Below, piece after piece: positions 39,259-49,378 of a stretch of DNA of 64,000 nucleotides. The stretch is from Acidimicrobiia bacterium (GTDB taxonomy: Bacteria; Actinomycetota; Acidimicrobiia; Spongiisociales; ZC4RG35), in NCBI GenBank assembly GCA_035461175.1, contig DATHVR010000030.1, positions 9,392-73,391 on the forward strand. Direction: 5' to 3'. The notes under the pieces were generated by a model. It had not been told where the DNA came from, ran no database searches, and saw nothing but the letters and a program-made list of their open reading frames with translations. A program made the position numbers and the translations under genes. The number at the start of each line of letters is the position of its first letter. Position 1 is the stretch's first letter.

Positions 39259-40560
39259 ATGAGCGAGGAGATCAGGCCGGATCGGCTCGGGTTCGAGACC
39301 CTTGCATTGCACGCCGGGGTCGAGCCCGATCCCCGCACCGGCGCCTCCAACGTCCCCATCTACCTCTCCTCGTCGTTCGTGTTTGAGGATGCCGACCACG
39401 CCGCCTCCCTCTTCAACCTCGAGATACCAGGCCACATCTACAGCCGCATCTCCAACCCGACCGTGGCCGCCTTCGAGGAGCGGATGGCGGCGCTGGAGGG
39501 CGGCGTCGGCGCGGTGGCCACGGCCTCGGGCCAGGCCGCCCTGGTGCTGGTGGCCACCACCCTGTGTGAGTCCGGGAGCCACATCGTCGCCTCCAAGTCG
39601 CTGTACGGGGGGACGATCAACTTCTTGGCCCACACCCTGCCCCGCTTCGGGATCACCACCACCTTCGTCGATCCGGCCCGCCCTGAGGCGGTGGAGGAGG
39701 CGGTCACCGACGCCACGCGTTTCGTCCTGGCGGAGACTGTGGGCAATCCCACCATGCGGGTGGCCGATCTCCCGGCGCTGGCCGAGGTGTCCCACCGCCA
39801 CGGTCTCCCCCTCGTGGTCGACAACACCTTTCCCACCCCCTACTTGTGCCGACCGGTCGAATGGGGAGCCGACATCGTCTTCCATTCGGCCACCAAGCAC
39901 ATCTCGGGTCATGGCTCGGTGATCGGGGGAGTGGTGGTGGACGGCGGCGGCTTCGACTGGCAAGCCTCGGGTCGGTTCCCGTCCCTGACCGAGCCCTATG
40001 CCCCCTATGGCGGGATCGTCTTCACCGACCAGTTCGGAACCGCCGCCTTCGCCGCTCGGGCGCGAGCGGAGGGAATCCGTGACTTCGGAGCATGCATGTC
40101 GCCCGAGGTGGCCTATCGCCTTCTGGAGGGTCTGGAAACGCTGCCGGCACGGATGGACCGCCACGTGGCCAACGCCGTCCGGGTGGCCAGGTACCTGGCT
40201 TCGGCCGAGGGAGTCGCCTCTGTCTCCTACCCGGGCCTCGACTCCCACCCCGATCACGATCTGGCGGCCCGGCTGCTGCCGCAGGGAGCGGGCTCGATCA
40301 TGTCGTTCGTCCTTACCGGAGGGCGCGATGCCGGGCGTCGCTGCATCGAGTCCCTGCGCCTCTTCTCCCACCTCGCCAATGTCGGCGACTCCCGATCGCT
40401 GGTGATCCACCCGGCCAGCACCACCCACGCCCAGCTCGGCCCCCAGGCGATGGCGGCGGCCGGCATCGACGCCGGGCTGGTGCGACTGTCGGTGGGCCTG
40501 GAGGACCCCGATGACCTCATCGCCGATCTCGCCCGCGGGCTGCGGGCCGCCACCCGGTGA
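39259..40560 (+). CDS. metY: O-acetylhomoserine aminocarboxypropyltransferase (sulfhydrylase) MetY
   Basis: PLP-dependent Cys/Met metabolism family; NPTVAAFEERMAALEGG…HSATKHISGHG. Confidence 0.9.
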   Translation: MSEEIRPDRLGFETLALHAGVEPDPRTGASNVPIYLSSSFVFEDADHAASLFNLEIPGHIYSRISNPTVAAFEERMAALEGGVGAVATASGQAALVLVATTLCESGSHIVASKSLYGGTINFLAHTLPRFGITTTFVDPARPEAVEEAVTDATRFVLAETVGNPTMRVADLPALAEVSHRHGLPLVVDNTFPTPYLCRPVEWGADIVFHSATKHISGHGSVIGGVVVDGGGFDWQASGRFPSLTEPYAPYGGIVFTDQFGTAAFAARARAEGIRDFGACMSPEVAYRLLEGLETLPARMDRHVANAVRVARYLASAEGVASVSYPGLDSHPDHDLAARLLPQGAGSIMSFVLTGGRDAGRRCIESLRLFSHLANVGDSRSLVIHPASTTHAQLGPQAMAAAGIDAGLVRLSVGLEDPDDLIADLARGLRAATR

Positions 40561-41315
40561 CGGTCTACGTCCACACCGGAGGAAAACCCGATGCCGAGGG
40601 GCCCCCGGTGGTCTTCCTCCACGGTGCCGGCGGCGATCATACGGTGTGGCGGTTCCAGACCCGCCGGCTGGCACATCACGGCTATCACGTCCTTGCTCCC
40701 GATCTGCCCGGCCACGGCGGGAGCGATGGCGAACCGCGGGAATCGATCGAGGCTTGGAGTGATTGGTTCCTGTCGTTTCTCGACGAGCGATTGGATCGGC
40801 CGGCGACGGTCCTGGGCCATTCCATGGGAGGGTTGATCGCCATGCAATCCGCCGTCCACCATCCCGACCCTTTCGAGCGGCTGGTGCTGGTGGGCAGCGG
40901 GCGCTCGATGCCGGTCCATCCCCGCTTGGTGGAGGCGGCTCGCCACGATCCCGCCCTGGCGGCCGCGCTGATCTCGGGGTGGTCACTGCCCGCCGCCGAT
41001 CGCGGCGGCCACCCCGAGCCGGGCACCTGGCAAAAGGGCGGGATCGAGTGGCTGATCACCCGCAGCCGACCCGGTGTCCTGGCGACTGATCTGGCCGCCT
41101 GTTCGGCCTGCGATGTGCTGGTCGAGGAGATCCAGGTCCCGACCGAGGTCGTGATCGGATCCGACGACCGGATGGTGGGCCGCCGAGCCGGCGAGCAGCT
41201 GGCAGCCGCCATCCCCGGAGCCGCCTTTCACCTGATCGAAGGGGCCGGTCACGATCCGATGGTGCAGATGCCCCGGACTTTCAACCGGCTGCTCGACTCG
41301 TTCCTCGGCGTCTGA
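40557..41315 (+). CDS. Alpha/beta hydrolase
   Basis: GHSMGG nucleophile elbow. The GTG start overlaps the metY stop (GTGA). Confidence 0.75.
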   Translation: MTVYVHTGGKPDAEGPPVVFLHGAGGDHTVWRFQTRRLAHHGYHVLAPDLPGHGGSDGEPRESIEAWSDWFLSFLDERLDRPATVLGHSMGGLIAMQSAVHHPDPFERLVLVGSGRSMPVHPRLVEAARHDPALAAALISGWSLPAADRGGHPEPGTWQKGGIEWLITRSRPGVLATDLAACSACDVLVEEIQVPTEVVIGSDDRMVGRRAGEQLAAAIPGAAFHLIEGAGHDPMVQMPRTFNRLLDSFLGV

Positions 41316-41352
41316 CGGGAAGGTCGAGGCCCGGTACCGTGTTGGCCTCACC

Positions 41353-42507
41353 ATGAGCCAGAGCAGCGACTCCAACCTGGGACGGGTCAAGACCCGTACC
41401 CACACCCTCGAGGGACCTTTCCGCGTCCAGGGTGGCGGGGTGCTCTCCCAGGTGATCCTGGCGTACGAGCAATACGGGGAGGTGAACGAGGCAGGAGACA
41501 ACGTCATCCTGCTCTTCCACGCCCTCACCGGCAGCCAGCACGCCGCCGGCTGGAACCACACCGTGCCCGACCTGGCGGTGGAATGGACCGAGGAGTGCCA
41601 GGAAGGATGGTGGGACGGGTTCATCGGACCCGGCAAGGCGCTCGACACCGACCGCTTCGCCGTGTTCTGCGTCAACTACCTGGGCGGGTGCTACGGATCC
41701 ACCGGGCCGGCCTCGGTTGACCCCGAGACCGAGCGTCCGTACGGTTCCCGCTTCCCCGAGATCGCCCTCACCGACATCGTCGATTCCCAGATGCAGATGC
41801 TGGAAGAGATGGGCATCTCCCGCCTTCACGCCGTGATCGGAGGATCGGTCGGCGGAATGATGGCCGTGGTCGCCGCCACCCGCTATCCCGATCGGGTCGA
41901 CCTGGTGATTCCGATCGCCGCCGGGCTGGCGGTCACCTCGCTGCAGGTGATCCACAATTTCGAGCAGATGTTCGCAATCGTCTCCGATCCCGACTTCAAG
42001 GGCGGCGACTACTACGGGGGTCCCGGTCCCCAGCTCGGGCTCGCCCACGCTCGCATGATCGGGCACAAGACATTCGTCTCGCTCGATGCCCTCCGCCGGC
42101 GGGCCCGCGACGAGGTCATCCAGAACGAGGACCTGGGCGGGTATCGGGTGGGGCACTCGCTGGAGTCGTACATGCTCCATCAGGGCCAGAAGTTCGTGGA
42201 GCGCTTCGATGCCAATACCTACCTGCGGGTGATGGAGGTGTGGCAGCGCTTCGACCTGGAGGCAGAGGTGGGAGCACCGATTCCGGAGTTGCTCGCCCGT
42301 TGTCGGGAACAGGCATGGCTGGTGCTCACCATCGACAGCGATGTTTGCTTCTACCCCGACGAGCAACGAGACATGGTGGCGGCGCTCCGGGCCTCCAATG
42401 TCCCGGTGCGGTGGTTCACGGTCCACTCGGACAAGGGCCATGACTCGTTCCTGATCGAGCCCTGGCTGTACGAGGCGCTGCTCAGGGACATCCTCGCCGT
42501 ACCCTGA
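41353..42507 (+). CDS. metX: Homoserine O-acetyltransferase MetX
   Basis: FHALTGSQHAAGW and GGSVGGMMA are MetX signatures. Confidence 0.9.
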   Translation: MSQSSDSNLGRVKTRTHTLEGPFRVQGGGVLSQVILAYEQYGEVNEAGDNVILLFHALTGSQHAAGWNHTVPDLAVEWTEECQEGWWDGFIGPGKALDTDRFAVFCVNYLGGCYGSTGPASVDPETERPYGSRFPEIALTDIVDSQMQMLEEMGISRLHAVIGGSVGGMMAVVAATRYPDRVDLVIPIAAGLAVTSLQVIHNFEQMFAIVSDPDFKGGDYYGGPGPQLGLAHARMIGHKTFVSLDALRRRARDEVIQNEDLGGYRVGHSLESYMLHQGQKFVERFDANTYLRVMEVWQRFDLEAEVGAPIPELLARCREQAWLVLTIDSDVCFYPDEQRDMVAALRASNVPVRWFTVHSDKGHDSFLIEPWLYEALLRDILAVP

Positions 42508-42551
42508 GGCCGAATAGGGACCTTCCCCCATAGACAGATGGACGACGGCGG

Positions 42552-43217
42552 ATGATGCTCGAACCCATGCCAGATATCTTGACCAACGCGGGCGCGCCCC
42601 TTATCGGGTACCTGTTGGGAGCGGTGCCGTTCGCCCTCCTCATCGGGAGGATGCTCGGTATCGACCTGCGGACCGAGGGGACCGGCAACGTCGGAGCCGG
42701 CAACCTCACCAAACTGGCCGGGCTCCCTTACGGGGCGGCGGCGGCGATCCTGGATGGACTCAAGGGTCTGCTGCCGGTCCTGGTGGCCCGCCGCCTTGGC
42801 CTGGCCGACGGCGTGGCGGCCGCCGGTGGTGTGGCCGCCGTGATCGGCCACAACTGGTCGATCTACCTGCGCTCCCGCTCCGGGCGGGGGATGGCGACCT
42901 CGGTCGGAGTCCTGGTTGGGCTGGCGCCTTCGCTGATGGTCTGGACCGGGCTGTGGGCCGTGATCGGCTGGTGGATCGGAGGCGGTCTGGGCGGTTTCGT
43001 CGGCTGGGCGTTGCTTGGTCCGGTGGCGGTTATGGCGGGATATCCCCGGCCGGTGGTCATGACCGCCTTCACGCTCTCCCTGATCGTGCTCCTCCGCCGC
43101 GCTCAGGGGCAGGACGGAGACTCGTTCGAGTGGCGGGATGTGGCGGAGCGGGTGGTCTGGGACACCGATCGACCGGAGACGCTGGAGGACGGAAGAGCGG
43201 AAAGACCGGTCCGGTGA
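42552..43217 (+). CDS. plsY: Glycerol-3-phosphate acyltransferase PlsY
   Basis: GTGNVGAGN motif; about 5 TM helices. Confidence 0.85.
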   Translation: MMLEPMPDILTNAGAPLIGYLLGAVPFALLIGRMLGIDLRTEGTGNVGAGNLTKLAGLPYGAAAAILDGLKGLLPVLVARRLGLADGVAAAGGVAAVIGHNWSIYLRSRSGRGMATSVGVLVGLAPSLMVWTGLWAVIGWWIGGGLGGFVGWALLGPVAVMAGYPRPVVMTAFTLSLIVLLRRAQGQDGDSFEWRDVAERVVWDTDRPETLEDGRAERPVR

Positions 43218-44112
43218 GAAAAAGCTGGGCCGTGGCCATCGGTCTGGTGATCGCCGCCGCCTATCTGGCGGCGTTCATCTTCTTCATCGAACCCGAGGAT
43301 CTTCCTGCGCCGACTACCTGGACCATCGTGCTCCTGGGAGCGGCGGTGGTTGCCCAGCTCGCCGGTGTATGGATGTTCGGTGAACTGTTTCGCCAGGGCC
43401 TGGCTGCCATCGGACGCCGCGTCTCTGGCTGGCTTGGCTTTCGGGCGGCGCTGGTGGGCGCCACGGTCGCCCGGTTGTTGCCGGCGGGAGGGGCCGTCAC
43501 ACCTCTGGCCATGTCGTGGACGGTCAAGAGCCGCGTGCCTCACGCCAGCGGGGCGGCGATCCGCGCCACTGCCCTCAACTACGGCGCCCTGCTCGTCATC
43601 ACCGGTATCGGTCTGCTTCTCGCCGACGGGATGCGAAACTGGTCGGGCCGGATGCGGATAGTGGGGGCGGGTTCCCTGCTGATAGGAGGCGTGGTGCTCG
43701 CGATCGGGACCCGCCTCGGAGCGGTGTTACGCCGCCTGCCCCACCGTATTGCCGACCGGTTCCGGCACTCCACGGTCGATCTCGCCCTCGACCCGCGCGG
43801 CCACGGCCTGGTCTGGGGAAGGATCCTGACCGAGACTGCGGTACTCGGCCTGGTGCTGGTCGTGTTCGAGATCGAACTTGCCCCGATGCAACTGGCCGCC
43901 GCCTTCGGTATGTCCCAGCTGGCGGCGGGCATCCCCGGCACCCCGGGCGGGGCCGGATTTGCCGAAGCGGGGCTGGTGGGAGGTCTCGCCCTGTTCGGGG
44001 TTGGCGCCTCCACCGCCCTGGCACCGGTCCTGGTCTTCCGCATCGTCTCCTACTGGCTTCCGGCCGGAGCGGGGCTCCTAGCCGGCACTGCCGCCTTTCT
44101 CCGGGCCGGAGC
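43214..44112 (+). CDS. Flippase-like (lysyl-PG synthase TM region / UPF0104) membrane domain; reading frame continues into bcp with no stop
   Basis: GTG overlaps the plsY stop (GTGA). About 8 TM helices. There is no in-frame stop before the Bcp Met at 44113. Confidence 0.5.
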
Positions 44113-44566
44113 TAGCGTCGAGCCGATGAAAGCCAATTTCGACCTTCACGACCAAGACGGCAATCGGGTTACTTCCGACGACTACGCCGGAAAGCGCCTG
44201 ATCATGTTCTTCTATCCCAAGGCGATGACGGCTGGATGTACCACCGAGGCCTGCGACTTCCGCGATTCCTACGAGGAGTTGCTCGAGGCCGGTTATGAGA
44301 TCGTCGGGGTCAGCCCCGACGCCCCCGAGGACAACGCCGAGTTCCGCAAGAAGGAAGGGCTGCCCTTCCCGCTCCTGTCCGACCAGGACCATGCCTTGGC
44401 CGACCAGCTCGGCGCCTGGGGGACGAAGAAGCTCTACGGCAAGGAGGTCGAGGGTCTGATCCGCTCTACCTTCGTGATCGGCCCCGAGGGCGAGGTCGAA
44501 GAGGTATATCGCAACGTCAAGGCCACCGGCCACGTCGAACGGCTCAAGAAGGACCTGCTGACCTGA
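44113..44566 (+). CDS. bcp: Thiol peroxidase Bcp (peroxiredoxin), possibly expressed as a fusion with the upstream membrane domain
   Basis: FFYPKAMTAGCTTEAC is the peroxidatic-Cys motif. GGAG lies 14 nt upstream of the ATG. Confidence 0.8.
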
Positions 44567-44591
44567 TCGGAAGCGGGTTGCCCCGGGGCGG

Positions 44592-45359
44592 CTAGCGGCC
44601 CGGGCCGGGTGGGCCGGCGAAGACCTGGGCGATCTCCATCCAGCGCCGGGCCAGACCACCCTCCATCACCAGGTGAGTGTCGGCGAGATTGCGCCGCTGG
44701 GTCACCACCAGGCATAAGTCCTCGACCGGGCCGGTGATCGAGGCGTTTTCTTCGTCGTTCCACACCCGGATCGTCCCCGATGGGCCCCGCAGTGCCACCC
44801 GCACCCGTTGGTCGGGGATCTCCAACCCTCGATTCGAGAACGACCAGGAGAAGGTCCGCACTCCGAGGTCGGCGATGTGGAAGAGGCGGTCTGTCACGGG
44901 AAGGGAGGCGCCGAGGGCATCGGCGACGTCGGTGCCGTGGGCCCAGGTCTCCATCAGCCGGGCCACCACCGACGAGCGGGCCCGCATCGGTGGCCCGTAC
45001 CAGGGGAGCCGCTGCTCGGGGTCGACTCGGGCGAAGGCAGCGATCAGATCGGCCCGGGCCTTTTGCCACCACCCCAGGGTGTTGGGGCCATCGAGGGCCC
45101 GGTGGCGGTGGAGCTCGGCCACGTCGCCGGTGAGCGCCTCGATGTCGCGGTTCACCTGCTCGACGAAGGCATCGGGGTCGGACGCGGCGAGAGCGGCTCG
45201 CTCGTCGAAGTAGGCGAGGTGGCCGATCTGGTCCCGAATCGTCCACGGCTCGGCTGGAGTAATCGCCTCCCAACCGGCCGAATCCAGGCCTTCGATCAGC
45301 CTCATCAGCGCCTCGGTCTCGGCGGAGAGATCCGCCAGCAGCTCTGCGATCGTGCTCAT
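44592..45359 (-). CDS. TIGR03084-type DinB-like (maleylpyruvate isomerase N-terminal domain) protein
   Basis: Trimmed to MSTIAELLADL. WTIRDQIGHLAYFDE pattern. Confidence 0.65.
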   Translation of the reverse strand: MSTIAELLADLSAETEALMRLIEGLDSAGWEAITPAEPWTIRDQIGHLAYFDERAALAASDPDAFVEQVNRDIEALTGDVAELHRHRALDGPNTLGWWQKARADLIAAFARVDPEQRLPWYGPPMRARSSVVARLMETWAHGTDVADALGASLPVTDRLFHIADLGVRTFSWSFSNRGLEIPDQRVRVALRGPSGTIRVWNDEENASITGPVEDLCLVVTQRRNLADTHLVMEGGLARRWMEIAQVFAGPPGPGR

Positions 45360-46329: not shown

Positions 46330-48306
46330 TCATGATTCCCCCACCACCACCAGTACCGCCTCGGCGGCGACCTGGTCTCCCGCTCCGGCGTGGATGGCGG
46401 TGACCACCCCGCCGTGGGGGGCGCGCAGTGAGTGCTCCATCTTCATCGCCTCCAGCACCACCAGCACCTGGCCTTCCTCCACCGTGTCGCCTTCCTCGAC
46501 CGTCACCCGTATCACCTTCCCGGGCATGGGGGCGTGGAGCGAGCCCGGGTCCTCTTCGTGCTCGGTGTCGGGGAACCGGGGCTTCTCGGTGAGTTGCACC
46601 GGACCTTCGGGGCCGTCGACGTAGATGGTGTCGCCCGACTGATGCACCCGATACCAGCCCAGCAAGCCCTCGAGCTCCAGGCCGACCCGGTCCTCGCTCG
46701 CTTCCAGCAGGCGAGCGTTATCGTATCCGTCGACGGTGAGGCGGCCGGAGCGGTCGAAGCTGTATCCGACCTCGATTTCCCCATGGCTGCCGGCGAAGTC
46801 GATCCGCTGGGGCTGTGAGGGCACGTTGCGCCAGCCGCTGGGGAGGGTGCCCAGTGCTCTGGCCTGGTGCCGGTGCCGGACCTGGGCGGCGAGAGCGGCC
46901 GCCACCGCCGCCCGCCGCTCCCCGTCGGCGTCGACCAATGGAGCGCTGAGGGCGGAGGGCTCGTGGCGCTCCAGAAAGTGGGTGTCGATCTCGCCCGCCA
47001 GGAACTCGGGATGGCGGAGGATGCGAACCAGCAGGTCCCGGTTGGTGACCGATCCGTGCACCGCCGCCCGTTCCAGGCTGCGGGCGAGGAGGATGGCCGC
47101 CTCGGCGCGGGTGGGAGCCCACGCCACCACCTTGGCCAACATCGGGTCGTAGTAGACGCTGATCTCCGAGCCGCTCTCGACCCCGCTGTCCACCCGCAGG
47201 CCCTCGGCCGCCGGGACCTCGAAGCGATCCAGGGTTCCCGTCACGGGCAGGAAGCCCGCCGAGGGGTCCTCGGCATACAGGCGGGCCTCGATGGCGTGAC
47301 CGACGAGGGAGGGACGCAGGGCGGCTTCGGGCAGCGGCTCGCCCATCGCCACCGTCAGTTGCAGACGCACCAGATCGAGGCCGGTCACCATCTCGGTGAC
47401 GGGGTGCTCGACCTGAAGCCGGGTGTTCATCTCCAGGAAGTAGAACTCGCCCTCCTGGTACAGGAACTCGACGGTGCCCGCCCCGACATAGTCGACGGCG
47501 CGGGCAGCGGCGACGGCCGCCTCACCCATCCGGGTGCGGGTGGCTTCGTCGATCACCGGCGAGGGGGCCTCCTCGATGATCTTCTGGTGGCGACGCTGGA
47601 TCGAACACTCACGCTCGAACAGCGACACGGTCTCCCCGGCTGTGTCGGCGAAGATCTGGATCTCGATGTGGCGAGGCGCCTCCAGGTACTTCTCCAGGAA
47701 CAAGGTGTCGTCGCCGAAGGCGGCTCCTGCCTCCCGGCGGGCGGCCTCGATCGCCTCGTCCAGTTCCTCCGGTTCGGCGACGATTCGCATGCCTTTGCCG
47801 CCTCCGCCGGCCGAGGCCTTGACCAGTACCGGGTAGCCGATCCTGGTTGCCAGCTCGGCCGCCTCGGCCGGATCTGAACCGGTGAGATCGAAGCCGGCCA
47901 GCGTGGGGACCCCGGCCGCTTCCATCAGGCGTTTGGAGGCGAGCTTGGAACCCATCACCTCGATGGCGGTGGCCGGAGGGCCGATCCAGATCAGCCCCGC
48001 CTCCTCCACGGCCCGGGCGAAAGAGGCGTTCTCGGCCAGGAATCCGTAACCGGGGTGGACGGCGTCGGCGCCGAGGCGCCGGGCGGCGGCCACCACCGCC
48101 TCGATGTCGAGATAGGTTTCGGCCGGGGAGTTGCCGGTCAGGGCCGCGGCCGAGTCGGCCTCACGGACGAAAGGGGCGCTGCGGTCGGCCTCGGAGTAGA
48201 CGGCGGCGGTGGCGATACCCATCCGGCGGCAGGTGGCGAAGATGCGTCGGGTGATCTCGCCCCGATTGGCGACGAGGAGCCTGGTGATGGTCGATTGCTG
48301 GGCCAT
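46330..48306 (-). CDS. Acyl-CoA carboxylase alpha subunit (biotin carboxylase + biotin carboxyl carrier domains)
   Basis: Trimmed to MAQQSTITRLLVANRGEI. ATP-grasp motifs and C-terminal EAMKME biotinylation site. Confidence 0.9.
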   Translation of the reverse strand: MAQQSTITRLLVANRGEITRRIFATCRRMGIATAAVYSEADRSAPFVREADSAAALTGNSPAETYLDIEAVVAAARRLGADAVHPGYGFLAENASFARAVEEAGLIWIGPPATAIEVMGSKLASKRLMEAAGVPTLAGFDLTGSDPAEAAELATRIGYPVLVKASAGGGGKGMRIVAEPEELDEAIEAARREAGAAFGDDTLFLEKYLEAPRHIEIQIFADTAGETVSLFERECSIQRRHQKIIEEAPSPVIDEATRTRMGEAAVAAARAVDYVGAGTVEFLYQEGEFYFLEMNTRLQVEHPVTEMVTGLDLVRLQLTVAMGEPLPEAALRPSLVGHAIEARLYAEDPSAGFLPVTGTLDRFEVPAAEGLRVDSGVESGSEISVYYDPMLAKVVAWAPTRAEAAILLARSLERAAVHGSVTNRDLLVRILRHPEFLAGEIDTHFLERHEPSALSAPLVDADGERRAAVAAALAAQVRHRHQARALGTLPSGWRNVPSQPQRIDFAGSHGEIEVGYSFDRSGRLTVDGYDNARLLEASEDRVGLELEGLLGWYRVHQSGDTIYVDGPEGPVQLTEKPRFPDTEHEEDPGSLHAPMPGKVIRVTVEEGDTVEEGQVLVVLEAMKMEHSLRAPHGGVVTAIHAGAGDQVAAEAVLVVVGES

Positions 48307-48392
48307 GGCAGGACCGGAACGGTAGCGGCCGGTCGCAGCGCTATGTCTCCGAGTCGGATAGGTTGGGGGTGAAAGCGAGAGGAGACCAGTCC

Positions 48393-48716
48393 ATGACCTA
48401 TCAGCTTCGACCGATCGAGACCCGGATCCTGGCGATGCGACAGGCGGGGCTGAGCGACGCCGAGATCGGCACGAAGGTGCGCAAGAGCCCGTCCCGAGTG
48501 GCGATGATCGCCGATTGGGCCCAGCACCCGGCGCGCGGCTCGGGTTTGAAGCGCGAGGACGAGGTCCTGTCTCCTGTGGCCAAGAGGGTCCTGGCGATGC
48601 GGGCCGAAGGCCAGTCGCACGCCGAGATCGGCGATCGTCTCCGGCGCGGCCCTCGCTATGTACGTCAGGTCGAAGGCCTGGCCCACTTCCGCCGGTACCG
48701 GGAACTCCTGGGTTGA
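48393..48716 (+). CDS. Small protein with two tandem LuxR/GerE-type HTH repeats
   Basis: Internal duplication: ETRILAMRQAGLSDAEIGTKVRKSPSRV and AKRVLAMRAEGQSHAEIGDRLRRGPRYV. RBS gagaggag. Confidence 0.45.
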   Translation: MTYQLRPIETRILAMRQAGLSDAEIGTKVRKSPSRVAMIADWAQHPARGSGLKREDEVLSPVAKRVLAMRAEGQSHAEIGDRLRRGPRYVRQVEGLAHFRRYRELLG

Positions 48717-49378
48717 CCACACCCGAGCCGTCCCCGCCCCGGCGGGGGATAGGAGTAGGCACCGCGCTGCTGGTGGCGATGGTGCTGGGGTTGGTGGCCG
48801 TCATCGGTCTCACGGTGTGGGGGATCCGCAACATCGCCGACGCCGTGCCGACTCCCGCCGATCTGTCGGCGGCCCTGGAGCCGGAGCCATATCAGGAGAT
48901 CGGCCCCACCGTCGTCCGTTCGGTTCGTGACCTGGCCAACCTGACCACGATCGAACTGGTCGAGTACACGATCGTCGAGAAGGGGACCGATGCCGGATTC
49001 CTGGCCTGGGCCCGGGGCGACAGCCTGGAGTTGTTCGCCGTGGCCCGGATCGGAGCCGGGGTCGACCTCGGCTCCGTCAACGTCCGTTCCTTCGACCTGT
49101 CTGAGGACGGGGTGGTGGAAATGGTGGTGCCGGCGGCCGAGATCCAGTACGTGGCGGTCGACAATGAAGCTACCCAGATCCTCGATCGCTCCACCGGCTT
49201 GTTCACCAAGGGCGACCCCCGGCTCGAGTCGGATGCCCGGCGGGTGGCTGAGGAGATCCTCCAGCAGGCCGCCATCGAGGAGGGAATCCTCGACACCGCC
49301 GAGGAGAACGCCTCCGAGGTCATCACCAACTTCCTGCTCAGCCTCGGCTACCGCGACGTGATCATCGAGTTCGAATAG
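48713..49378 (+). CDS. DUF4230 family protein (N-terminal TM anchor)
   Basis: Possible TTG start overlapping the upstream stop (TTGA). The later ATG/GTG starts cannot be ruled out. Confidence 0.55.
   Translation: MTTPEPSPPRRGIGVGTALLVAMVLGLVAVIGLTVWGIRNIADAVPTPADLSAALEPEPYQEIGPTVVRSVRDLANLTTIELVEYTIVEKGTDAGFLAWARGDSLELFAVARIGAGVDLGSVNVRSFDLSEDGVVEMVVPAAEIQYVAVDNEATQILDRSTGLFTKGDPRLESDARRVAEEILQQAAIEEGILDTAEENASEVITNFLLSLGYRDVIIEFE

What the first reader, a model, noticed from the sequence alone, without database searches (positions are those of the whole stretch)
43214..44566. Membrane flippase-like domain gene reads straight into bcp with no stop codon
A roughly 300-aa polytopic membrane domain (UPF0104/lysyl-PG-synthase-TM-like), whose GTG start is coupled to plsY, continues in frame into a canonical Bcp peroxiredoxin (FFYPKAMTAGCT). 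Either this is a genuine membrane-tethered thiol peroxidase next to phospholipid synthesis genes, or a stop/frameshift has been lost (TAG lies in the -1 frame at about 44100). A GGAG 14 nt before the Bcp ATG would also allow independent initiation.
Basis: seen in the sequence. Interest (0 to 1): 0.5.

Follow-up and report, generated by a model that had tools for sequence, protein, structure and literature searches.

The report
Lipid-translocator domain fused to Bcp peroxidase
In this soil Acidimicrobiia genome a membrane lipid-translocator protein really is fused to a thiol peroxidase, a rare but conserved arrangement that still carries a promoter inside the gene for making the free peroxidase, hinting that peroxide removal is stationed next to the phospholipid-synthesis machinery.

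Summary
Bases 43214-44566 form one 450-aa ORF. Its GTG start overlaps the plsY stop (GTGA). It encodes an 8-TM PplT/YbhN domain (the fold of MprF flippase subdomain 1) joined by about 7 residues to a complete PrxQ/Bcp peroxiredoxin.

It is not an assembly error. Eighteen protein clusters from independent assemblies, 48-96% identical, show the same fusion. At least two independent stop-codon losses produced it. Most Acidimicrobiia (59 of 80 species loci) keep plsY-pplT-bcp as adjacent separate genes.

The main new point concerns the "TAG in the -1 frame". It belongs to a TANNNT -10 box (TAGCGT, 44113-44118) lying 7 nt upstream of the Bcp ATG (44126). This box is present in 60 of 62 loci, against 0.4% expected by chance, and in 7 of 8 fused genes. 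In the fused genes it is kept through synonymous T-ending codons. It marks an actinobacterial leaderless promoter, so both a tethered and a free Bcp are probably made.

Topology places Bcp in the cytoplasm. A role in reducing membrane-proximal or lipid hydroperoxides is inferred, not shown. I rate this a new variant of known kinds, of moderate interest.

The parts
42552..43217 (+). plsY (acyl-phosphate:glycerol-3-phosphate acyltransferase), 221 aa; its TGA stop overlaps the start of the fused gene
   Evidence: Pfam G3P_acyltransf, E 8.5e-31. The gene sits directly upstream of pplT in the related loci.
43214..43217 (+). GTGA start/stop overlap, indicating translational coupling of plsY to pplT
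   Evidence: Read from the sequence. Among 84 non-redundant loci, 68 have an NTGA overlap, 4 have TGATG and 9 are PlsY~PplT fusions.
43214..44566 (+). Fused ORF pplT~bcp, 450 aa plus stop (GenBank HSJ33923.1)
43214..44104 (+). PplT/YbhN domain (aa 1-297). Helix pattern TM1, 2, 3a, 3b, 4, 5, 6, 7a, 7b, 8, matching MprF flippase subdomain 1. Predicted N-in/C-in topology.
43964..43966 (+). Glu251 codon, the putative gate acidic residue (SaMprF D254 / RtMprF E280)
   Evidence: Invariant in A1 and A2. Position mapped through the NCBIfam MprF alignment, offset +3. The gate is described in PMC8131360.
44039..44041 (+). Arg276 codon, the putative gate arginine on TM8 (SaMprF R279 / RtMprF R304)
   Evidence: Invariant in A1 and A2. 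Mapping as for Glu251.
44105..44125 (+). Short linker (aa 298-304, low pLDDT), derived from the former pplT 3' end and intergenic DNA
   Evidence: AF2 pLDDT below 50 at residues 298-302. Junction comparison with separate loci.
44108..44111 (+).
44113..44118 (+). TAGCGT, a TANNNT -10 box for a leaderless bcp transcript, embedded in codons Ala300-Ser301-Val302
   Evidence: 60 of 62 loci carry TANNNT 6-9 nt upstream of the bcp ATG, against 0.4% expected. It is kept in 7 of 8 fused loci through T-ending synonymous codons. The motif is defined in PMC3898074.
44126..44128 (+). ATG of Met305, the ancestral bcp start and predicted leaderless transcription/translation start
   Evidence: Met is conserved in 17 of 18 fused proteins. 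The same ATG is the called start of the 146-aa Bcp in separate loci.
44126..44566 (+). PrxQ/Bcp peroxiredoxin domain (aa 305-450) plus stop
44237..44239 (+). Peroxidatic Cys342 (in PKAMTAGC)
   Evidence: Invariant in A1.
44252..44254 (+). Resolving Cys347 (CP+5). Present here but replaced in 4 of 18 fused relatives.
44462..44464 (+). Active-site Arg417
   Evidence: Invariant in A1. It aligns with the conserved Arg of the PrxQ structures.

Best explanation
This is a genuine, evolutionarily maintained gene fusion, and the explanation has five parts.

(1) Origin: shown by comparison. Acidimicrobiia ancestrally carry plsY-pplT-bcp. plsY and pplT are translationally coupled through an NTGA overlap. 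bcp follows a short spacer and has its own -10 box immediately upstream of a leaderless ATG. In the window's lineage the pplT stop codon was lost. The roughly 20-nt tail and spacer became a linker of about 7 residues.

(2) Products: inferred. Translation coupled to PlsY gives a 450-aa membrane protein. The retained internal TAGCGT -10 box (44113-44118) still fires a leaderless transcript starting at ATG 44126. That transcript gives free 146-aa Bcp. The cell therefore probably makes both a tethered pool and a soluble pool.

(3) Topology: inferred from MprF homology and the positive-inside rule. The PplT domain is N-in/C-in, so Bcp sits on the cytoplasmic face, a few residues from the end of TM8. 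There thioredoxin can recycle it.

(4) Chemistry: from family knowledge. Cys342 attacks ROOH, Cys347 resolves the intermediate, and thioredoxin reduces the disulfide.

(5) Role: the most speculative step. The tether stations a PrxQ-type peroxidase at the PlsY-PplT phospholipid synthesis and translocation site. PrxQ enzymes are good fatty-acid hydroperoxide reductases. The tethered enzyme would reduce membrane-proximal, probably lipid, hydroperoxides. This parallels the way the enzyme fused to the MprF transport domain defines which lipid is handled.
For: The fusion is real. Eighteen fused clusters at 48-96% identity come from independent collections. Fused loci are syntenic with the window. 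Three further GTDB species are fused.

Ancestral separate state. 59 loci have pplT and bcp adjacent but separate.

Independent origins. P0018/L089 sits next to the separate locus L013 in the tree. It has read through a different, longer tail.

Frame maintenance. There is 1 frame change in the fused clade, against 5.7 expected at the rate seen in the separate clade (P about 0.02).

Internal promoter.
- TANNNT lies 6-9 nt before the ATG in 60 of 62 loci, against 0.4% expected.
- It is kept in 7 of 8 fused genes.
- In the fused genes the amino acid varies (A, V, G, S, or Y-P) while the rare T-ending codon persists; third-position T is about 10% in these genes.
- Leaderless-type starts are enriched across the window: 25 of 102 TANNNT are followed by RTG at 6-8 nt, and my rough base-composition estimate is about 8.
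- The motif is defined in M. tuberculosis (PMC3898074).

Topology. K+R count 10.4 inside versus 0.9 outside.

Functional frame from the literature. The MprF transport domain is promiscuous and its function is set by the fused enzyme (PMC11980842). PplT is linked to phospholipid synthesis enzymes (preprint 10.1101/2022.03.11.483950). M. tuberculosis PrxQ B is a monomeric, thioredoxin-dependent fatty-acid hydroperoxide reductase (cited in PMC6400530).
Against: Most species keep the genes separate, so the fusion is not needed for either activity.

bcp has its own promoter, so adjacency need not mean co-expression.

L040 (ATGA overlap) and L049 (26-nt overlap) are nested among fused forms and look like reversions. 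The fusion is therefore dispensable, unless these are MAG indel errors.

No transcript, protein or activity data exist. The interdomain geometry of the model could not be inspected, and pTM is only 0.60.

The frame-maintenance test rests on a rough NJ tree and parsimony.

No evidence bears directly on a lipid hydroperoxide substrate.
Confidence: 0.6

Rival explanations
1. Neutral or nearly neutral fusion. A single stop-codon loss joined two neighbouring genes that were already one mutation from fusion. Both domains work as before, and the tether adds nothing of selective value.
For: In 31 of 59 separate loci bcp is already in frame with pplT, only 9-51 nt downstream of its stop. In some loci the stop is the TAG or TAA of the -10 box itself. 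The fusion arose at least twice and seems to have been undone in L040 and L049. Free Bcp is probably still made from the internal promoter. The architecture is rare: only one of the best 150 representatives, from a library of 1.84 billion, spans both domains.
Against: The fused frame persists over divergence down to about 50% identity in the TM domain. Only 1 frame change is seen against 5.7 expected from intergenic turnover in the separate clade. Linker length is almost fixed. Recurrent independent fusion of the same two neighbours is the classic signature of a functional link.
Confidence: 0.3
2. Assembly or sequencing artefact. A missing base or a miscalled stop at about 44100 falsely joins two genes.
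For: The source is a metagenome-assembled genome. Most relatives have two genes.
Against: The same 450-aa protein is found at 96, 89, 87, 82 and 71% identity in independent datasets, and 445-482-aa fused forms extend down to 48% identity. Fused loci were read directly in 8 separate assemblies.
Confidence: 0.02
3. Redox-sensor reading. The tethered Bcp does not mainly detoxify peroxide. Instead it senses peroxide and, through its oxidation state, gates or regulates lipid translocation by PplT or synthesis by PlsY.
For: Peroxiredoxins act as peroxide sensors and relays in other systems (my own knowledge). The linker is very short, which favours conformational coupling. The resolving Cys is lost only in fused lineages, in 4 of 18 fused proteins against 0 of 61 separate ones. 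This suggests an altered catalytic cycle.
Against: No conserved Cys or other obvious redox target was noted in the PplT domain (invariant columns). All peroxidase catalytic residues are intact. No precedent was found in the literature searches.
Confidence: 0.07
4. Extracytoplasmic peroxidase. The Bcp domain faces the outside of the membrane and protects the cell envelope.
For: Envelope-located peroxiredoxins exist in other bacteria (PMC3322552, listed).
Against: MprF homology gives an even number of membrane crossings with both ends inside. The positive-inside count is 10.4 versus 0.9. The ancestral Bcp is a leaderless cytoplasmic protein without a signal peptide.
Confidence: 0.02

Closest known systems
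MprF (bifunctional aminoacyl-phosphatidylglycerol synthase/flippase; R. tropici 6LVF/7DUW, P. aeruginosa 9J8Q)
   Different: There is no subdomain 2 (TM9-14) and no GNAT-type aminoacyl-PG synthase. The attached enzyme is a thiol peroxidase joined directly to TM8 by about 7 residues. Sequence similarity is too low for a profile built from this family to find MprF among PDB sequences.
E. coli YbhN / 'PplT' stand-alone translocator proteins (preprint 10.1101/2022.03.11.483950)
   Same: Same Pfam family (PF03706) and size (about 300 aa), and a genomic link to phospholipid synthesis genes. In E. coli the link is to clsB; here it is to plsY.
   Different: Here the protein is coupled to plsY and fused to Bcp. 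The preprint lists aaPG synthase, glycosyltransferase, kinase and other partners among 148 architectures. It does not mention peroxiredoxin or PlsY.
PrxQ/BCP peroxiredoxins (X. campestris PrxQ 5IOW, B. ambifaria 5ENU, M. tuberculosis BcpB 5EPF / PrxQ B, E. coli BCP)
   Same: The catalytic domain is 38-46% identical, with a TM-score of about 0.85. It has the PxxxTxxC motif, the Arg, and a resolving Cys at CP+5.
   Different: The known enzymes are soluble and mostly monomeric. This one is the C-terminal domain of a polytopic membrane protein. In some fused relatives the resolving Cys is lost.
Prdx6 and GPx4 (eukaryotic phospholipid-hydroperoxide reductases)
   Same: This is a functional analogy only: thiol or selenol peroxidases that act at the membrane surface on lipid hydroperoxides. 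Prdx6 is also tied to phospholipid remodelling.
   Different: These are peripheral, not integral, membrane proteins with no translocator domain. The analogy is an inference from my own knowledge and was not tested here.
Actinobacterial leaderless genes with TANNNT -10 boxes (M. tuberculosis, PMC3898074)
   Same: The TANNNT hexamer lies 6-9 nt upstream of the ATG with no Shine-Dalgarno sequence.
   Different: Here the promoter lies inside a coding sequence, so it is an internal transcription start that yields the C-terminal domain as a separate protein. No experimental start-site data exist for Acidimicrobiia loci.
Other Bcp fusion proteins (Thermotoga Prx-nitroreductase 4EO3; tandem Bcp and Bcp-PNPOx proteins seen)
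   Same: Bcp tolerates fusion to other domains.
   Different: The partners are soluble redox domains. None is a membrane lipid translocator.

Membership tests
PrxQ/BCP subfamily of peroxiredoxins | Family HMM score above the curated cutoff | tested here: met
   NCBIfam PRK09437 scores 147.1 bits against a cutoff of 140. Pfam AhpC-TSA scores 118.8 bits against a cutoff of 26.
PrxQ/BCP subfamily of peroxiredoxins | PxxxTxxC active-site motif with a peroxidatic Cys, plus the conserved Arg | tested here: met
   P335-K-A-M-T339-A-G-C342 and R417, all invariant in 18 fused proteins.
PrxQ/BCP subfamily of peroxiredoxins | Resolving Cys five residues after CP (atypical 2-Cys, alpha-type BCP) | tested here: met
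   C347 is present in the window. It is replaced by A, G, E or R in P0012, P0013, P0015 and P0016, and conserved in 61 of 61 separate Bcp.
PrxQ/BCP subfamily of peroxiredoxins | Thioredoxin-fold structure superposable on solved PrxQ | tested here: met
PrxQ/BCP subfamily of peroxiredoxins | Thioredoxin-dependent hydroperoxide reductase activity | not testable with these tools
   Needs an enzyme assay. No trx gene was found in the window.
PplT / YbhN / UPF0104 (Pfam PF03706, MprF flippase subdomain 1) | Full-length match to PF03706 above the gathering score | tested here: met
   55.3 bits against 33.4, with aa 8-287 matching model positions 2-302 of 302. TIGR00374 scores 41.6 against a cutoff of 43.2, just below.
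PplT / YbhN / UPF0104 (Pfam PF03706, MprF flippase subdomain 1) | Eight membrane segments, including two half-spanning helix pairs (TM3a/3b, TM7a/7b) | tested here: met
   AF2 helices at 3-24, 35-65, 72-88, 92-103, 112-136, 141-166, 194-217, 224-237, 249-259 and 265-297 match the description in PMC8131360.
PplT / YbhN / UPF0104 (Pfam PF03706, MprF flippase subdomain 1) | Fold similarity to solved MprF | tested here: met
PplT / YbhN / UPF0104 (Pfam PF03706, MprF flippase subdomain 1) | Gate salt bridge (acidic residue on TM7b, Arg on TM8) | tested here: met
   E251 and R276 are invariant in A1 and A2. They map to model positions 254 and 279 of the NCBIfam MprF HMM, which match the SaMprF D254 and R279 numbering. 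The mapping is by offset, not by residue-level structural alignment.
PplT / YbhN / UPF0104 (Pfam PF03706, MprF flippase subdomain 1) | Lipid translocation or scrambling activity | not testable with these tools
   Needs proteoliposome assays.
MprF proper (bifunctional aaPG synthase/flippase) | C-terminal GNAT-type aminoacyl-PG synthase domain | tested here: not met
   There is no such Pfam or NCBIfam hit, and the C-terminal domain is Bcp. NF033480 scores 27.6 bits against a cutoff of 600.
MprF proper (bifunctional aaPG synthase/flippase) | Flippase subdomain 2 (TM9-14) | tested here: not met
   The protein passes from TM8 (to residue 297) through a 7-residue linker straight into Bcp.
Actinobacterial leaderless transcription unit | TANNNT -10 hexamer about 6-9 nt upstream of the start codon, with no Shine-Dalgarno sequence | tested here: met
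   TAGCGT at 44113-44118, a 7-nt spacer, then the ATG. 60 of 62 loci have it, against 0.4% expected.
Actinobacterial leaderless transcription unit | Mapped transcription start at the first base of the start codon | not testable with these tools
   No transcriptome data are available. The E. coli-type promoter scan finds nothing, as expected.

The most novel reading that the evidence does not exclude
PplT~Bcp, together with the translationally coupled PlsY, is a dedicated repair station for oxidised membrane phospholipids. The scramblase-type cavity, which opens to the inner leaflet, captures or exposes peroxidised phospholipids. The tethered PrxQ reduces them in situ at the expense of thioredoxin. 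This would be a bacterial, integral-membrane counterpart of GPx4/Prdx6. It would also be the first case where the MprF-type transport domain is paired with a redox enzyme rather than a head-group-modifying enzyme.
Probability: 0.2. Interest if true: 0.8.

Novelty: new variant of a known kind. Interest (0 to 1): 0.5.

Why it matters
Two open problems meet at this locus.

First, the identity of the general phospholipid flippase or scramblase of bacterial membranes is unsettled. PplT/YbhN is a current candidate, supported mainly by indirect data. Here pplT is translationally coupled to plsY, the first committed acyltransferase of phospholipid synthesis, in 72 of 84 Acidimicrobiia loci. It is physically fused to plsY in 9 more. 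That is strong comparative support for a stoichiometric PlsY-PplT unit.

Second, how bacteria deal with hydroperoxides in or at the membrane is poorly understood. A PrxQ that has been fused at least twice to this translocator, and kept in frame over deep divergence, offers a concrete and testable system.

The case also shows how a leaderless promoter can survive inside a fused ORF, so that one gene yields both a tethered and a free form of an enzyme. Annotation pipelines currently hide this by naming the 450-aa protein simply 'thiol peroxidase'.

Tried and rejected
- Foldseek of the whole model against PDB was swamped by peroxiredoxins, and no MprF chain appeared in the 50 rows shown.
- The E. 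coli-type sigma-70 promoter scan found nothing in 41000-45000. It is uninformative for this high-GC actinobacterium.
- The two terminator-like hairpins are at chance level (2 found, 1.4 expected).
- The AFDB50 fold library was unavailable, so UniProt-wide architecture counts could not be obtained.
- In the exhaustive representative search, only one of the best 150 hits spans both domains. The two hits with two matched stretches are tandem Bcp. The other long Bcp proteins that were checked have unrelated extensions, including one Bcp-PNPOx.
- I considered programmed stop-codon readthrough in the many loci where bcp is in frame with pplT, and rejected it. Inspection of L014 and similar loci shows the TGA stop followed by a second in-frame stop inside the -10 box.
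- I considered the GGAG as a Shine-Dalgarno sequence and rejected it. It is 14 nt from the ATG and absent in the other fused loci.
- No thioredoxin gene and no second peroxiredoxin were found in the window.
- Literature searches found no description of a PplT-peroxiredoxin or PlsY-PplT fusion.
Full report
OBSERVATION. The window has a single open frame from GTG 43214 to the TGA at 44564-44566, 450 codons with no stop. The GTG overlaps the TGA of the upstream gene (GTGA, 43214-43217). That upstream gene, 42552-43217, is plsY (Pfam G3P_acyltransf, E 8.5e-31). Pfam places LPG_synthase_TM (PF03706) on residues 8-287, covering the whole model at 55.3 bits against a gathering score of 33.4. It places AhpC-TSA on residues 308-430. 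NCBIfam scores the Bcp equivalog PRK09437 at 147.1 bits, above its cutoff of 140. The GGAG is at 44108-44111, 14 nt before ATG 44126. The exact protein is in GenBank as HSJ33923.1. It is annotated as one 450-aa CDS, 'thioredoxin-dependent thiol peroxidase', from an Acidimicrobiia MAG.

IS THE FUSION REAL? A search of 5.8 billion clustered proteins returned 18 clusters with both domains in one chain. They are 445-482 aa long (one is a 326-aa fragment) and 96% down to 48% identical to the window protein. They come from five independent collections. In their alignment the peroxidatic Cys342, Thr339 and Arg417 are invariant. The old Bcp start Met305 is kept in 17 of 18. Loci encoding fused proteins P0007, P0013, P0009 and P0005 share the window's gene order where their contigs extend far enough. 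That order is metY-like, two alpha/beta hydrolases, plsY, the fusion, then MDMPI-like and 4HBT genes on the other strand. An assembly artefact is therefore excluded.

WHAT RELATIVES LOOK LIKE. A scan of one genome per GTDB species gave 80 loci, nearly all labelled Acidimicrobiia or Actinomycetota MAGs, a few carrying other bin labels. I classified them with a script.
- 3 loci are fused (L009-L011).
- 59 have plsY-pplT-bcp as adjacent separate genes.
- 18 have no bcp downstream, and 8 of these have PlsY fused to PplT. With L008 that makes 9 PlsY~PplT loci in all.

The standalone protein P0040 sits in the same synteny as the window, with a 146-aa bcp 37 nt downstream. In the 59 separate loci the spacer runs from -26 to 57 nt, with one locus at 185 nt. 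In 31 of them bcp is in the same frame as pplT. The ancestral arrangement was thus often a single stop codon away from fusion.

An NJ tree of the TM domains puts most fused proteins in one superclade together with the window. P0018, however, sits next to the separate locus L013 in a different clade. Its junction shows read-through of a different and longer PplT tail (FIRS[DE]AA..AV...), which gives a 29-residue longer linker. The fusion therefore arose at least twice.

L040 (ATGA overlap) and L049 (26-nt overlap) are nested among fused forms. They look like frameshifted ex-fusions or MAG indel errors.

Using Fitch parsimony on that tree, the fused clade shows 1 frame change. At the rate seen in the separate clade, 5.7 would be expected (Poisson P about 0.02). 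This is rough evidence that the joined frame is under purifying selection.

THE JUNCTION: AN INTERNAL LEADERLESS PROMOTER. I aligned the DNA upstream of the bcp ATG in 62 non-redundant loci. A TANNNT hexamer lies 6-9 nt (mostly 6-7) before the ATG in 60 of them. The background frequency is 0.0007 per position, so the chance of a hit in that window is about 0.4%. There is no purine-rich Shine-Dalgarno in the spacer. This is the arrangement described for leaderless actinobacterial genes. In M. tuberculosis, TANNNT is centred 7-12 bp upstream of 73% of primary transcription start sites, and no -35 consensus is seen (PMC3898074).

In the window the hexamer is TAGCGT at 44113-44118, followed by 7 nt and then ATG 44126. 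The box is retained inside the coding sequence in 7 of 8 fused loci for which DNA was available: window, L001, L009, L011, L089, L091 and L092. The exception is L090.

The constraint acts on DNA, not on protein. The codon that supplies the first T is GCT (Ala), GTT (Val), GGT (Gly) or AGT (Ser) in different lineages. L089 uses TAC-CCT (Tyr-Pro). Only about 10% of codons in these genes end in T.

The two exceptions among separate loci have other signals. L042 has a GGAGG 6 nt upstream. L049 has a TACGTT 21 nt upstream.

Leaderless-type starts appear common in this genome. Of 102 TANNNT in the window, 25 are followed by RTG at 6-8 nt, where my rough base-composition estimate is about 8. Fifteen of these open ORFs of at least 100 aa.

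The GGAG is absent from the other fused loci. I therefore infer that the locus yields two products. One is the 450-aa fusion, translated in coupling with PlsY. The other is free 146-aa Bcp from an internal leaderless transcript.

THE TWO DOMAINS. An AF2 model built from the 18-sequence alignment has mean pLDDT 83 and pTM 0.60. Its helices are at 3-24, 35-65, 72-88, 92-103, 112-136, 141-166, 194-217, 224-237, 249-259 and 265-297. They reproduce the TM1, 2, 3a, 3b, 4, 5, 6, 7a, 7b, 8 pattern of MprF flippase subdomain 1 (PMC8131360).

Glu251 and Arg276 are invariant in both the fused and the standalone alignments. The NCBIfam MprF alignment maps query 63-297 to model 66-300. This places them at positions 254 and 279, the numbers of the S. 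aureus gate pair D254/R279, equivalent to R. tropici E280/R304. The translocator core therefore looks intact. The protein lacks MprF subdomain 2 and the synthase domain, so it is a PplT/YbhN-type protein and not an MprF.

TOPOLOGY. With the model's helix boundaries and the MprF topology, loops predicted to be cytoplasmic carry on average 10.4 K+R and outside loops 0.9. For the standalone homologues the figures are 8.7 and 1.5. The domain is therefore N-in/C-in, and Bcp is held on the cytoplasmic face by a linker of about 7 residues (298-304, low pLDDT). This fits its thioredoxin dependence.

LINK TO plsY. Among 84 non-redundant loci, 68 have the pplT start overlapping the plsY stop by 4 nt (GTGA, ATGA or TTGA). 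Four overlap by 1 nt, 9 are PlsY~PplT fusions, 1 is a near-abutting 1-nt gap (L071) and 2 are other (L022, L037). This class-wide coupling argues for a stoichiometric PlsY-PplT unit. It fits published indications that PplT/YbhN associates with phospholipid synthesis enzymes (preprint 10.1101/2022.03.11.483950). It also fits the finding that the MprF transport domain is a promiscuous scramblase whose physiological role is set by the attached enzyme (PMC11980842).

MECHANISM. Shown: the architecture, its conservation, at least two independent origins, the conserved -10 box and the intact catalytic residues. Inferred with good support: the dual products and the cytoplasmic location of Bcp. Inferred from family knowledge: Cys342 is oxidised by ROOH, resolved by Cys347 and recycled by thioredoxin. 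PrxQ enzymes such as M. tuberculosis PrxQ B are monomeric and efficient on fatty-acid hydroperoxides (Reyes 2016, as cited in PMC6400530). A monomer would tolerate tethering. Speculative: the tether stations the peroxidase beside the lipid-conducting cavity and the PlsY site in order to reduce membrane-proximal or lipid hydroperoxides.

One curious correlate stands out. The resolving Cys is conserved in all 61 separate Bcp but is replaced in 4 of 18 fused proteins, representing at least two events. One of these four, P0013, is also the fused locus that has lost the internal -10 box.

RIVALS. The main rival is a neutral fusion. The arrangement was one mutation from fusion, most species manage without it, and it seems reversible. 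Frame maintenance and recurrence argue against pure neutrality, but not decisively. An artefact is excluded. A redox-sensor role and an outward-facing domain are possible in principle but have little or no support.

NOVELTY. Both domains belong to known families, and fusion of PplT to enzymes is a known theme. Within the library searched, no paper describes a PplT-peroxiredoxin fusion, a PlsY-PplT fusion, or the internal leaderless promoter. Databases name the protein only after its Bcp part. Among 1.84 billion 50%-identity representatives, only one of the best 150 hits spans both domains, so the architecture is rare and lineage-restricted. I classify it as a new variant of known kinds, with moderate interest (0.5). 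The interest comes mostly from the testable link between a candidate general phospholipid translocator, the first step of phospholipid synthesis and a lipid-hydroperoxide-capable peroxidase.

Noticed in passing
L008:6001-7551; also L074, L075, L077, L081, L082, L085, L087, L088: A separate Acidimicrobiia clade has PlsY fused N-terminally to the PplT domain (about 510-528 aa; P0049, P0054, P0059, P0065, P0110 and others). No bcp follows. In L008 the context is ffh-rpsP-rimM ... trmD-rplS, and a small PLDc_N protein lies downstream.
   Followed up: partly
window 43214-43217 and 84 related loci: The plsY stop and the pplT start overlap by 4 nt (NTGA) in 68 of 84 loci and by 1 nt in 4 more. This is class-wide translational coupling of the first phospholipid acyltransferase to a candidate lipid translocator.
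   Followed up: yes
L012-L039, L042, L078, L086 (junction between pplT and bcp): In 31 of 59 separate loci bcp is in the same reading frame as pplT, where one third would be expected. In several loci (L023, L025, L028, L030, L038, L039) the pplT stop codon is the TAG of the bcp -10 box itself. This may be phylogenetic inertia. Readthrough seems unlikely, because inspection of L014 and similar loci shows a second in-frame stop.
   Followed up: partly
P0012, P0013, P0015, P0016 (alignment A1, column of window Cys347; 44252-44254): The resolving cysteine of Bcp is replaced (A, G, E, R) only in fused lineages. It is conserved in all 61 separate Bcp. P0013/L090 has also lost the internal -10 box.
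   Followed up: partly
window, candidate start codons at 1584(+), 3265(-), 5741(-), 14358(-), 21902(+), 24292(-), 26926(+), 30455(-), 34220(+), 36868(+), 51478(-), 51557(+), 55212(-), 58551(+): TANNNT followed at 6-8 nt by ATG or GTG opens ORFs of at least 100 aa at these positions. Several have only 3-25 open codons upstream, which suggests that many genes in this genome are leaderless.
   Followed up: no
L042:4943-4963 and L049:4870-4901: These are the two loci without the -10 box at the usual distance. L042 has a canonical GGAGG Shine-Dalgarno 6 nt before the bcp ATG. L049 has a TACGTT 21 nt upstream, and its pplT ORF overlaps bcp by 26 nt.
   Followed up: partly
window 46330-48834 (-): The mechanical ORF for the biotin carboxylase / acyl-CoA carboxylase alpha subunit is 834 aa. 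Relatives are 655-659 aa (L001, L004). The proline- and arginine-rich N-terminal 170 or so residues are probably not translated. The real start is likely near MAQQSTITRLLVANRGE.
   Followed up: no
window 39259-42507 (+): Upstream of plsY lies a conserved block: a Cys_Met_Meta_PP enzyme (MetY-like), a 252-aa alpha/beta hydrolase and a 384-aa Abhydrolase_1 protein (MetX-like). The same order is seen in L001, L004 and L091, so plsY-pplT may be co-transcribed with methionine-pathway genes.
   Followed up: no
window 43252-43273 (+): A GC-rich hairpin followed by a T-rich tail lies just inside the 5' end of the fused ORF. The scan found 2 such sites in 4 kb against 1.4 expected, so it is probably chance.
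   Followed up: no
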